From an uncultured Verrucomicrobiae bacterium (GTDB lineage: Bacteria; Verrucomicrobiota; Verrucomicrobiia; Chthoniobacterales; JAFAMB01), in contig CAWEXO010000012.1 of the NCBI GenBank assembly GCA_963813025.1, positions 113,794 to 177,793 on the forward strand: DNA of 64,000 nucleotides. Direction: 5' to 3'. The notes below the pieces were generated by a model. That model saw only the letters and a list, made by a program, of their open reading frames with translations. It made no database searches and was not told the origin of the DNA. Shown here one piece after another: positions 39,378-43,278 of the stretch (the stretch's first letter is position 1; the number at the start of each line of letters is the position of its first letter). Made by a program: the position numbers and the translations under genes.

Positions 39378-39674
39378 TCAAAGACCGAGGATCGCTAGGA
39401 GCAGATAAGCGAGTATTCCAGCTGAGATCAGCCAATAGAGCGCCTGTTCAACAGAGTCAGCGAACCGCTCCGACCGTTCCGGGCCGGCCTCGACTCTGCG
39501 GACCTCCTGTTTCGCGCTTTTTATCATCCCATCAAATCGCGATGCTAATCGATCACGCGCCTCGAAAAAATCGATCACAGACGCTGAATCAGTCGTCGAA
39601 ACCCTTGTAGCTTCATCGAACGATCGTATGGACGGTTTGGGGGTGGCCTGCAATTCTTGCGGTATTAGCTTCAT
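39378..39674 (-). CDS. Hypothetical protein with C-terminal TM helix
   Basis: EQALYWLISAGILAYLLLAILGL tail. Confidence 0.5.
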   Translation of the reverse strand: MKLIPQELQATPKPSIRSFDEATRVSTTDSASVIDFFEARDRLASRFDGMIKSAKQEVRRVEAGPERSERFADSVEQALYWLISAGILAYLLLAILGL

Positions 39675-40650
39675 CTTACCCCGAATGATTTTGAGTTGAA
39701 GGGGACCTGTTCCAGGTTCCTAGACGGCCGCCTCCTCGAGAACGCCCCATCTTGGCGGGATAGGCGGCGAGGAAGGAGCACATCATGTGGCCGTGACCCC
39801 AGCGACGTCGCACCAGGTGGAAACTGAGGAGAAGTCGTACTCGCGCAACGCTTCGAGCGCCCAAGCGGATTGAATCGCCGAAAAGCCGGACATCGCCCGG
39901 CGAAAACCGCGCCGTAATCACTGTCCGGACCGCCAGGAGACCCAGTCGAAAAATACGCTCCTCGAGGGCCGCTACCCGATCCGACGTTTGCAACACAGCG
40001 GGTAGGTAAACTGAAATAGGAATGGGCAGGCTTTCCCAGCTCGTTGGCATCGTCTCGCGTCAGCTTAGTACCTCCGATCAAAGGGCGGACTGAGTCGCGG
40101 GTTTGGTTGCAGAACAGTGGAGCGGGAACCTCATAAGCGGCTTTCGGAGGCAACAGCCTCCGCGCTCGGGCGCCGCGGCGCAGGCAGGTCTCAAACTGCC
40201 GCCGGTTGTCACCTCGGTTTTTCCTTCGGCCAGAGGCATCCTTTCGGGTTCCTTCAGCTGATCTTGCAATCGTTCGGTGGCGGCTTGGAGCTGAATCAAG
40301 AATAGAGCAAATGAGTACATGCGGAAATCTCCTCCAGTGCGGAACTAACTGTTCCAAAGGAAGCTTTCGTATTTTCACAGTTATCTATCGCTTTCCGGCG
40401 GGCTTTATTCCCTTTTCTTGGGCAAAGTAAATCGAGTTTGATTTATGTCTTGCGAGCTCAATGTGTTGAAAACCTGACGGCCTCAGATCAATCAGCCACT
40501 TTCGCCGACTCGAAGGATTGTCTATGGGATGCCCCCCGCCCGATACGGACGAGGCCAGCCAGGTCTGTCGAACTTTGGGTAATCTATGGCGTACGCAATC
40601 GAGCTACGGTTCGGGAGAGAGGTTCGAGGGAGGTCCCGAAGGCGTCTTTG

Positions 40651-40785
40651 GTCCTGCGCCGGTAGGGCGAAAATTTATTCGAGCGTCAGCGAGAACTTGT
40701 TTGAGCCGTCTTCAGTGTGACCTGCCGCAGCGCCCGGCTCGAACGAGTCTTCGCCGAAGGCTCAGATGAATTCTCGCCCTACCGA
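40651..40785. repeat. GTAG-type REP/REPIN-like inverted repeat
   Basis: CGGTAGGGCGAAAATTTATTCGAGC… pairs with …GGCTCAGATGAATTCTCGCCCTACCG; 36 bp of the arm recurs exactly at 47035-47070. Confidence 0.75.
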
Positions 40786-40859
40786 TTTTGGGATGTTGCG
40801 AAACATTCTCTAAATTTTCGCCCTTGTACCTTGCCCCACCAACTTTTTTTCCCTTTTAA

Positions 40860-41065
40860 AGCCGCCCGCAAGGGCGGAACTCTGGAGGTGAAGAACTTGG
40901 CCGAGGGGGGTGGAAAACTGCTTCGCCCAAAGGTCGGTAGAACCTGTCCGGTAGATTAGTCCACCCTCCTCGTGCCGCACCTTGCAAAAGACCGAACCGT
41001 ATCTTAGGCCGTTCCAAAACAGGGTTGGAACATGAGCCTGTGTGAACAAGGCTCTGTCGGAAAGG
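40860..41065 (+). ncRNA. IS110 bridge RNA (target- and donor-binding loops); ends approximate
   Basis: Target guides TTCGCCC (40922) and CCGGTAG (40948) inside stem GAGGGGGGTGGA/TCCACCCTCCTC; donor guides ACCGTATCT (40996) and ACAAG (41046). Confidence 0.8.
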
Positions 41066-41121
41066 TGCCCGCCCAAGCGCTTCATCAAACAAAGAACCAA
41101 TTCAACGCGAATTCCTGTCTG

Positions 41122-41431
41122 ATGAAAAAACCTTACTGCATCGGTATTGACCTGGCAAAAGCAACCCTTGACTTTTGCACGCTCTCCAAAACCGGCGCCC
41201 GCCTCTGGCGGGGGAAACAACGCCTTCCTGCGTAAAGCCCTCTATCTGCCTGCCGCCGTGGCCCGTCGTTGGTGCAAACCCATCCGACAATGGGCTGCCG
41301 AGCTTGAGTCGCGCAAACTACACTCCCTGATCATCCGTGGCGCGATCATGCGCAAACTCCTCCACATTGTTTTCGGCGTTCTTCGCCACCAACAACCCTA
41401 CAATCCCCGCTTGGCTGCTATCCTCAAATGA
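41122..41431 (+). pseudogene. IS110 recombinase with central deletion
   Basis: N-term MKKPYCIGIDLAK (first DEDD Asp) joined out of frame to C-term GNNAFLRKALYLPA…AIMRKLLHIVFGVLRHQQPY. Confidence 0.88.
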
Positions 41432-41579
41432 CTTGACATTTCAAGACCGTATCTACCGGCGCAGGACAATGCGGTATCCTGAGACAATCTTAGCGCTCGC
41501 GCGACCAATCGCTTGGTGGCGTGCTACAGATTCCCAAGTCCGACACCCCCGAGGCCGTTCCGCGCTACTTGCGATCAAT

Positions 41580-41725
41580 CTTTGATCAGCAAAGCGATCG
41601 TCTGGCGTCCGCTACGCCGGTAAATGCGAAAGTCATTATCCAAGTCCAGACGACGCAGTTCAACGTGATCTCCGACATTCGCACCAGACAGGCATCGGCA
41701 AATGAAATAGGGACGTCGTAATGCA
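41580..41725 (-). pseudogene. PIN-domain toxin C-terminal fragment
   Basis: YDVPISFADACLVRMSE…(shift)DNDFRIYRRSGRQTI. Confidence 0.65.
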
Positions 41726-41726
41726 A

Positions 41727-42227
41727 CTACTTCAAGCCCTCGCCCTCGCAGACTGCTGGGGATTCGCGCAAACTCCGTGCGCAGATCAGACCATCAAAAT
41801 TTGCCGGAACAAAGGAAAGCTCCGGCGGGATCGTGATTCCAGCCGCAGCCAGAAGTTCTCGCTTGAACGCCTGAGTTGCGGGATGATCGACCTCGAAGAC
41901 TCGCGGAGCAGATTTAGACGATGAATTCCGATAGGCAAAAGTATCCAATCCGGCCCCGAGGATGACGTATTGGCGAACTCTACTTTGAATACTTGTGGCT
42001 AAGACGTCCTCGGCATAGCGGCTTCGAACTGCAAAGAAGGCGCGCCTCCGTCGCGCCGCGGATTTTTGGGCTTCTTCCGGATCGGTCGCCAAGGCCGCCC
42101 TCGCTTCCACCCCGATGATCCCAAGGGCAAGAGGATCATCAAAGACTCTCAGATAGTCATAGATCTGGTGGGCGGCCCGATGTAGCGCGACCCGCTCGGC
42201 CGTCTTGCTTGGCGTGGTCCTGTGCAT
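41727..42227 (-). pseudogene. LCM/TIGR00027-type SAM methyltransferase, C-terminally truncated
   Basis: PSKTAERVALHRAAH, QYVILGAGLDTFAYR, VFEVDHPATQ; homology ends at FVPANF. Confidence 0.8.
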
Positions 42228-42287
42228 TCGAATGCTGTTGTTTGGGACTAACCCCAACAAAGGCTGATTTGGACAACCCCGAAAATC

Positions 42288-43278
42288 TCAAGACTTCGGC
42301 AGAAGATCGGCAACCAAGGCTCGTTCTTCGTTCAATTCTTTCACACTGGCGCCGATGCGTTCCTGGCTGAACTCATTGATCTCGAGCCCTTGGACAATCT
42401 CCGATCGGTCGCCCGCGATGCGAACGGGAAAGGAACTGATCAAGCCGCTGATCGACCCCGTAGCTACCATCGGAACAGAGCGCAACACTAAACCATTCCT
42501 TGTTTTCCGTCGGCAAAGTCAAGGTCCGTACGGTGTCGATCGCCGCATTGGCTGCGGATGCAGCGGAAGAAGCTCCCCTCGCCTTGATGATGGCCGCACC
42601 GCGCTGTTGCACCGTGGTGATGAAAGTTTCCTTGAGCCATGAGTGGTCCTTGATGATTTCAGTCGTGGGCCTTCCGTCGATCTGCGCGTGGTAAAAATCC
42701 GGGTACTGGGTGGAGGAGTGATTTCCCCAGATGGTCATGTTCGTCACCGCGGATACATGCCTGCCCGCACGCGCCGCCAATTGTGATTTGGCGCGGTTCT
42801 CATCGAGACGAGTCATCGCGAACCACCGGTCGCGGGGGATTTCCGGTGCGTTATTCATGCCGATCAGACAGTTCGTGTTACAGGGATTGCCCACCACCAG
42901 GACACGAATGTCCGCCGCGGCGTTCCGTTGGATCGCCTGACCTTGTCCGGTAAAAATCTTGCCATTGATCCCAAGTAGATCTTTGCGCTCCATGCCTTGC
43001 TTGCGCGGAACGCTCCCGACCAGCAGCGCCCAGTTCACATTGCGGAAACCCTCGTCCAGATCGGCCGTGGCCGACGTCGTTTTCAGGAGGGGAAACGCAC
43101 AGTCTTCCAATTCCATCACGACACCTTCAAGAGCTGCCATAACCGAAGGGATCTCGACCAAACGAAGCTCAACAGGTTGATCCGGGCCAAGCATCGCGCC
43201 AGAAGCGATTCGAAACAGGAGCGAATACCCGATCTGACCGGCAGCGCCAGTGACCGCAATCTTGATGGGCGATTTCAT
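42288..43278 (-). CDS. mdh: Malate dehydrogenase with a single frameshift near 42448 (sequencing error or recent pseudogene)
   Basis: [36 protein letters not shown]-terminus GLISSFPV…ELNEER is in the adjacent frame. Confidence 0.92.

What the first reader, a model, noticed from the sequence alone, without database searches (positions are those of the whole stretch)
40823..41454. 632-bp non-autonomous IS110 with a fully readable bridge RNA
Seen: the recombinase is reduced to its first ~30 and last ~70 codons, but both ends persist. The reconstituted target is TTTCGCC-CT-ACCGG, matched by guides TTCGCCC (40922-40928) and CCGGTAG (40948-40954, complement of CTACCGG). The reconstituted donor junction is ACCGTAT-CT-TGTAC, matched by ACCGTATCT (40996-41004) and ACAAG (41046-41050). 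Known: this is the IS621-type bridge-RNA layout with a CT core. Inference: a MITE-like IS110 derivative that could be mobilised in trans, and a natural example of a new guide/target pair.
Basis: partly seen in the sequence, partly recalled or inferred. Interest (0 to 1): 0.8.

Follow-up and report, generated by a model that had tools for sequence, protein, structure and literature searches.

The report
Gutted IS110 copy retaining bridge RNA
This is a broken copy of a known kind of RNA-guided jumping gene (IS110, IS621-like) that lost most of its enzyme gene but kept its guide RNA and both ends, so intact sister copies in the same genome could probably still move it, though nothing shows that this short form ever moved.

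Summary
40823-41454 is an IS621-type IS110 element with CT cores, both ends and an intact bridge-RNA region; the recombinase is cut to about 32 + 70 codons, joined out of frame. The genome holds 12 two-ended copies at 12 different sites, seven with an intact 336-aa DEDD+Ser recombinase and the same donor junction. All 12 sit in a host GTAG-led REP-like repeat. All 12 have CGG at target positions 12-14, against 91 of 213 empty sites (p 6e-5), so the right guide pairs over 7 nt. Guides covary with targets in relatives: 34 of 43 loci match 5/5 on the right arm. The bridge-RNA identity is therefore well supported. The MITE reading is not: the 632-bp form is single-copy in this 80%-complete assembly, has no inverted repeats and shows signs of decay. 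The only hint of movement in trans is two 1012-bp sisters that share one deletion at different sites. Verdict: a deletion remnant of a new member of a known family, mobilisable in principle.

The parts
40823..41454 (+). Internally deleted IS110 (IS621-like) element, subfamily A, CT core to CT core
   Evidence: Termini identical in 12 of 12 two-ended copies
40816..40822 (+). Left target arm TTTCGCC (host REP-like repeat)
40823..40829 (+). Left core CT plus right donor arm TGTAC
40827..40832 (+). -10-like hexamer TACCTT; meets the -35 only in the circle
   Evidence: spacer 17 nt in 11 of 12 copies, 18 nt here; junction promoter known for IS621; function inferred
40862..40877 (+). 5' stem-loop of the bridge RNA
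40899..40976 (+). Target-binding loop module (outer stem, internal loop, inner stem-loop 40931-40945)
   Evidence: 4 of 16 outer-stem pairs change on both sides
40921..40929 (+). Left target guide CTTCGCCCA; matches target positions 2-8
   Evidence: 13 guide classes, mean 5.15/7 against 4.16 permuted
40948..40956 (+). Right target guide CCGGTAG (7 nt, naturally extended) plus handshake AT (pairs donor positions 7 and 6)
   Evidence: handshake rule from PMC11208158 passages
40977..41070 (+). Donor-binding loop module
40996..41004 (+). Left donor guide ACCGTATCT
41042..41052 (+). Right donor guide GT-[GA]-ACAAG plus handshake GC (G pairs target C7; C does not pair target C6)
   Evidence: GT goes with donor TGTAC in 28 of 28 parsed loci, AT with TGTAT in 9 of 9; layout
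41122..41216 (+). N-terminal remnant of the recombinase (about 32 codons, keeps only the first catalytic Asp)
   Evidence: (PF01548 E 0.024, under cut-off)
41217..41431 (+). C-terminal remnant (last 70 codons, out of frame with the N part; catalytic Ser lost)
41433..41438 (+). -35 hexamer TTGACA in the right end
41446..41454 (+). Left donor arm ACCGTAT plus right core CT
   Evidence: same arm in 55 of 57 parsed loci
41455..41459 (+). Right target arm ACCGG
   Evidence: 12 of 12 copies
40659..40785 (.). Host inverted doublet of the GTAG-led repeat (GTAG at 40662 to CTAC at 40782); carries one empty perfect target on the - strand (40659-40672) and one near-target (40772-40785)

Best explanation
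An IS621-like IS110 element of a now defective subfamily (A) inserted by bridge recombination into a host REP-like repeat and lost about 690 bp of its recombinase gene. Whether the loss came before or after the insertion is unknown. It is a single non-autonomous remnant. Shown here: the ends, cores, guides and target, and the choice of target by the guides. Inferred from IS621 work: the recombinase of the seven intact subfamily-B copies, loaded with a B or A bridge RNA, should recognise the remnant's identical donor arms and release a circle. In the circle TTGACA and TACCTT join into a sigma70-type promoter that drives the roughly 220-nt bridge RNA, which aims the circle at one of about 95 empty TCGCC-CT-ACCGG sites. 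It is competent in principle, but there is no sign that this 632-bp form has moved.
For: Twelve two-ended copies lie at 12 sites with one target motif. Seven intact 336-aa recombinases match PF01548 and PF02371 over cut-off and IS621/ISCro4 at E 1.2e-45/5.5e-44. Their D10/E62/D104/D107/S248 align with the IS621 catalytic residues; they differ by 4-12 mismatches in 1325 bp. The donor junction is identical in 12 of 12 copies. Right-arm selection: 12 of 12 occupied against 91 of 213 empty sites carry CGG, p 5.9e-5. In G015 the guide has changed, and 6 of 6 occupied sites have T13 against 12 of 113 empty ones, p 5.3e-6. G012 has a different guide and target, 8 of 8 matching. Covariation over 75 loci. 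The 632-bp form is single-copy and about 2% diverged from its sisters, mostly by amino-acid-changing substitutions. Bridge RNA works in trans for IS621 (PMC11208160 passage).
Against: The assembly is 80% complete, so further 632-bp copies or an intact A copy may be missing. The A and B proteins are only about 84% identical and their donor-binding loops differ slightly, so cross-activity is untested. The single-sequence minimum-energy fold pairs parts of the guides; forcing them open costs 11 kcal/mol. RNAalifold also pairs part of the right target guide and folds the donor loop differently. The junction promoter spacer is 18 nt here against 17 in the other 11 copies. A survey found no activity for IS110 elements with truncated recombinases (10.64898/2026.08.14.744561 passage).
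Confidence: 0.75

Rival explanations
1. A MITE-like unit: the 632-bp form arose elsewhere and was itself inserted here in trans, as one member of a short non-autonomous family.
For: The ends and bridge RNA are intact while the CDS is gone. Two 1012-bp sisters share one 306-bp deletion that removes two catalytic Asp codons and sit at different sites (99.4% identical), which points to movement after loss of function in this subfamily. No intact A copy is in the assembly. Precedent: MITEPpu9 (PMC12288879 passage).
Against: One copy only. No 632-bp form appears among the listed matches in 60 relatives. The deletion junction was not found in viral contigs. The two sisters could share their deletion by gene conversion. 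Intact ends are expected after any internal deletion.
Confidence: 0.15
2. The remnant is kept because it supplies bridge RNA in trans to the intact recombinases (an orphan guide), through read-through transcription.
For: The non-coding left end differs from the sisters at only 2 substitutions plus homopolymer indels (3 against the C9 copy), none at a guide base-pairing position of this copy, while the CDS remnant has more changes. Read-through bridge RNA supports IS621 excision (PMC13626964 passages).
Against: Every B copy carries its own bridge RNA with the same right guide. No promoter-like site was found on the + strand upstream. The numbers are too small to show selection.
Confidence: 0.06
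3. The deletion is an assembly artefact or a chimera of other copies.
For: The copy has three one-base homopolymer expansions relative to its sisters, as long-read consensus errors would give. No read set spanning the junction was available.
Against: It has unique flanks and private substitutions on both sides of the junction, found in no other copy. Other copies carry other clean deletions.
Confidence: 0.04

Closest known systems
IS621 (E. coli IS110 bridge recombinase system; PMC11208160, PMC11208158, passages read)
   Same: CT core; left end-CDS-right end layout with a long left end; 5' stem-loop, target loop and donor loop; GT linkers before the right guides; handshake AU in the target loop and G in the donor loop; discontiguous right donor guide; donor positions 6-13 identical to those named in PMC11208158; junction promoter; a REP target ending in CTAC; DEDD+Ser recombinase in the intact sisters (E 1.2e-45).
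   Different: The target left arm is TTTCGCC, not ATCAGGC. The right target guide pairs over 7 nt in nature (IS621 4 nt, though longer guides in orthologues are already reported there). Donor position 14 is C with a compensating G in the guide. The left guide matches positions 2-8, with the core T unpaired. This copy lacks the recombinase.
ISCro4 recombinase (PDB 9t56)
   Same: Second structural relative of the intact sister recombinase (E 5.5e-44).
   Different: Its RNA and target were not compared here.
MITEPpu9 / ISPpu9 of Pseudomonas putida (PMC12288879, passages read)
   Same: A non-autonomous IS110-family derivative with ends like its partner's, in REP targets, proposed to move with the transposase in trans.
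   Different: MITEPpu9 has eight copies and shown minicircles. The 632-bp form has one copy, keeps CDS remnants and has no shown circle.

Membership tests
IS110 family (IS110 group, IS621-like) | Recombinase with DEDD RuvC-like domain (PF01548) and Ser domain (PF02371) | tested here: met
   Met by 7 intact sister copies. The window copy keeps only fragments, 87-98% identical in protein to the subfamily-A sisters' termini.
IS110 family (IS110 group, IS621-like) | Short core at both ends, scarless insertion | tested here: met
   CT at both ends in 12 of 12 copies; empty paralogous sites carry one CT and no further duplication.
IS110 family (IS110 group, IS621-like) | Bridge RNA in the left end whose four guides match target and donor and covary with them | tested here: met
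   Right target guide 34 of 43 loci 5/5; 14 classes 4.56 against 2.66 permuted; left guide 13 classes 5.15 against 4.16; 0 of 20000 permutations reached either (kin are not independent). Donor guide change in one clade.
IS110 family (IS110 group, IS621-like) | Guides lie in internal loops of a two-module stem structure | tested here: inconclusive
   Outer stems are supported (98.5% of cells paired, 6 pairs with two-sided change against 2.1 shuffled, 0 of 500; the structure was drawn partly from the consensus fold). Variation is concentrated in the target guides. Energy-only folds pair parts of the guides.
IS110 family (IS110 group, IS621-like) | Promoter reconstituted across the circle junction | tested here: met
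   TTGACA-N17-TACCTT in 11 of 12 copies, N18 in this one; sequence match only.
IS110 family (IS110 group, IS621-like) | Circular intermediate, expressed RNA, recombination activity | not testable with these tools
   No RNA holder listed; no circle joint in the three contig sets laid, which is no evidence either way.
MITE | Several copies of the same short form at different sites | tested here: not met
   1 copy in an 80%-complete assembly; none among listed matches in 60 relatives.
MITE | Terminal inverted repeats | tested here: not met
   The two ends read are not inverted repeats (by inspection).
MITE | No coding capacity; ends shared with an autonomous partner in the genome | tested here: met
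REP/REPIN (host target repeat) | Abundant GTAG-led repeat, often in inverted doublets | tested here: met
   249 copies of the 9-mer against 31 expected; 146 of 249 in inverted doublets within 200 bp, mode 121-123 bp. The GTAG-REP label is recalled; the E. coli REPs quoted also end in CTAC.
REP/REPIN (host target repeat) | A Y1 (RAYT) transposase gene flanked by the repeat | tested here: not met
   The three PF01797 hits lie 3-18 kb from the nearest repeat; the assembly is incomplete.

The most novel reading that the evidence does not exclude
Subfamily A has become wholly parasitic. All three of its copies (632, 1012, 1013 bp) are catalytically dead, yet at least one moved after losing its active site, carried by the 84%-identical subfamily-B recombinase through the shared donor junction. 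That would be natural cross-subfamily hitch-hiking among bridge-RNA elements: the start of a bridge-RNA MITE lineage that brings its own guide and so chooses its own target.
Probability: 0.3. Interest if true: 0.5.

Novelty: new member of a known kind. Interest (0 to 1): 0.3.

Why it matters
The broken copy itself matters little: internally deleted IS copies are common (own knowledge), and this genome has several of this family. The family is of some use. It is a clade of IS621-like bridge recombinases in soil bacteria (relatives titled Verrucomicrobiae/Chthoniobacterales) with a nearly fixed donor and at least 14 natural right-guide variants. It shows within single genomes that a 7-nt right guide picks a subset of otherwise equal REP sites. 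The seven intact copies are a ready candidate orthologue for bridge editing. The dead A copies give a natural test of whether one bridge recombinase can move a sister's ends in trans.

Tried and rejected
Rfam scan of 39500-43000 at E up to 1: no match. Energy-only folding as proof of open guide loops: not decisive. A/B difference in the left guide (position 2, T or C) as a driver of target choice: no relation; A copies sit on 1 T and 2 C sites, B-type copies on 6 T and 3 C sites (read). The changed right guide of the C9 copy (CCGCTAG on a CTACCGG site) as proof of guidance in trans: rejected, because G015 copies carry the same mismatch in 5 of 5 parsed guides. Direct descent of the 632-bp form from the present 1012-bp copies: not supported; it keeps B-like states at 41184 and 41200; a shared ancestor remains possible. 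A RAYT gene beside the repeat: none. Sequencing runs: no RNA holder listed. Run X1 covers the flanks and a relative's bridge region but not the deletion junction. It shows one contig that skips 40823-41452 with a 2-letter overlap, an empty site, but with only 24 letters on the short side it may be a paralogous repeat, so it is not used as support. Deletion-junction pattern in viral contigs: 0. Earlier findings of this scan: nothing returned. My first right-end parser failed and was corrected. Paper searches: (IS110 + Verrucomicrobi + bridge RNA: 0 papers). Supplements of the bridge-RNA papers, which list natural guide/target pairs, were not read, so the pair may already be catalogued.

Full report
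Observation. The element runs 40823-41454 from CT to CT. It lies between genes: a leucine-carboxyl-methyltransferase-family gene and malate dehydrogenase follow on the - strand. The CDS starts at 41122, breaks after about 32 codons and resumes out of frame at the equivalent of residue 263 of the intact protein, so three of the four DEDD residues and the catalytic Ser are gone.

Family in the genome. BLAST of the element against the 4.4-Mb, 80%-complete assembly finds 12 two-ended copies at different sites and two fragments. Nine are subfamily B: seven intact (1324-1325 bp, 336 aa, 4-12 mismatches apart), one with an 81-bp in-frame deletion, and one interrupted by another IS. The B protein matches PF01548 and PF02371 over their cut-offs. 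Its only two PDB hits are IS621 (E 1.2e-45) and ISCro4 (5.5e-44), and the catalytic residues named in PMC11208158 (passages) are in register. Three copies are subfamily A: the window copy and two of 1012/1013 bp that share one 306-bp deletion, lose D104 and D107, and are 99.4% identical at unrelated sites. A and B proteins are about 84% identical where they overlap. No intact A copy is in the assembly. All 12 copies have the same donor junction.

Target. All 12 copies sit in TCGCY-CT-ACCGG. This is the end of a host repeat: the 9-mer TCGCCCTAC occurs 249 times against 31 expected from a fourth-order Markov model, and 146 of the 249 are in inverted doublets of mostly 121-123 bp. Read on the other strand it starts with GTAG, like the E. 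coli REPs that IS621 targets (sequences quoted); calling it REP-like is my inference. Twelve of 74 BLAST hits of the reconstituted empty site span the join, which fixes the boundaries. Among 213 empty sites with C at position 12, 91 continue GG, whereas 12 of 12 occupied sites do (Fisher p 5.9e-5). The right guide therefore acts over 7 nt. PMC11208160 (passages and section 5 read) already reports longer right guides in some orthologues.

Bridge RNA. The IS621 layout described in PMC11208158 maps position by position: 5' hairpin; target loop with left guide, inner stem-loop, GT linker, 7-nt right guide and handshake AT that pairs donor positions 7 and 6; donor loop with left guide, inner stem-loop, GT linker, a discontiguous right guide GT-[GA]-ACAAG and handshake G that pairs target C7. 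Departures: the left target guide matches positions 2-8 only, and the second donor-loop handshake base does not pair. The region folds better than shuffles (z -3.7). On 23 distinct sequences the two-module scaffold has 98.5% paired cells and 6 pairs with two-sided change, against 2.1 in shuffles; I drew that structure partly from the consensus fold, so it leans that way. Variation is highest in the target guides (0.67 and 0.61 bits against 0.12 in stems). Against this, energy-only folds pair parts of the guides, and forcing them open costs 11 kcal/mol. Rfam gave no match.

Covariation. I parsed 75 loci: 5 from this genome, 18 of the 22 (four distant ones at 35-39% left out) and all 52. Forty-three had both a right guide and a right flank; 34 of 43 match at 5 of 5 non-core positions. 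Over 14 guide classes the mean is 4.56 of 5 against 2.66 permuted. For the left guide (45 loci, 13 classes, best of two registers) it is 5.15 of 7 against 4.16. None of 20000 permutations reached either. Kin are not independent, so these p-values overstate. Single genomes make the point more cleanly. In G015 the right guide has A where ours has C, and 6 of 6 occupied sites have T13 against 12 of 113 empty ones; two other positions of that guide are mismatched or wobble. In G012 guide and target are both different and match in 8 of 8 right ends. The donor guide GT goes with donor TGTAC in 28 of 28 parsed loci and AT with TGTAT in 9 of 9, which is one independent change.

How it works. By analogy with IS621, a recombinase-bridge RNA complex excises the element at the CT cores. 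The circle joins TTGACA (41433-41438) to TACCTT (40827-40832), 17 nt apart in 11 of 12 copies and 18 here. The resulting RNA directs insertion into a free repeat end; 95 exact TCGCCCTACCGG sites are empty. This copy needs the protein from a B copy. Bridge RNA works in trans for IS621. PMC13626964 (abstract and passages) reports weak read-through expression and does not exclude action in trans between copies. The preprint 10.64898/2026.08.31.748434 (abstract and section 8) reports that donor-arm recognition suffices for excision. All of this is inferred for the present element; nothing was shown by reads.

Is it a MITE? Not on the evidence. The 632-bp form occurs once, has no inverted repeats, and differs from its sisters by about 2%, with 4 derived amino-acid-changing and 1 derived silent change in the CDS remnant when B is taken as outgroup (my reading). 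That looks like decay. The best hint of movement in trans comes from the two 1012-bp sisters, and gene conversion could also explain them. A MITE-like IS110 derivative is already described (MITEPpu9, PMC12288879 passages). A 2026 survey saw no activity in elements with truncated recombinases (10.64898/2026.08.14.744561 passages). Searches for a description of this family found none, but the supplements that list natural guide/target pairs were not read.

Verdict. The object is a deletion remnant of a new IS621-like member, probably mobilisable, not shown mobile. New member of a known kind; interest 0.3.

Noticed in passing
L086 (G000:C4:5760-5896, - strand): A solo bridge-RNA fragment joined to the same kind of repeat cluster as flanks the window copy. 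The join is a microhomology of up to 10 nt between the host repeat and the left target guide, so the guide's likeness to its target repeat may promote deletions. L025 (G010) shows a similar repeat-to-bridge join.
   Followed up: partly
L083 (G000:C14:421125, - strand): A third subfamily (right guide TCGGTAG) with a left end and bridge region, a large CDS deletion and no right end found; a close relative is in run X1.
   Followed up: partly
G000:C9:67089-69147: A B copy interrupted right at the start codon by an IS of about 1450 bp (IS3-like by my reading, not tested), with loss of most of the CDS.
   Followed up: no
L085, L086, L096 and G015 loci L022, L046, L050, L051, L053: The same G-to-C change in the right guide (opposite target position 11) recurs in several lineages while the targets keep C11, a tolerated C-C mismatch. 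In G010 the right flank has G11, which such a guide would match. Unexplained.
   Followed up: partly
L046, L087-L096 against window 40921-40930: The left guide pairs in two registers one base apart: some relatives match with the guide shifted by one, and one G015 copy sits on a site with an extra C. A homopolymer error is possible for the last.
   Followed up: partly
whole genome G000: Very IS110-rich: 40 PF01548 and 43 PF02371 matches in several unrelated families. One has a similar inner-loop motif on the far side of its CDS (G000:C13:454201, C3:60727, C13:713076, C14:168231).
   Followed up: no
L075: Tandem repeats of the left donor end (three copies of an 11-bp unit) at one insertion in a relative.
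   Followed up: no
window 42288-43278: The malate dehydrogenase ORF ends at 301 aa in a frame that looks shifted near its end, with a short ORF overlapping; possibly a consensus indel.
   Followed up: no
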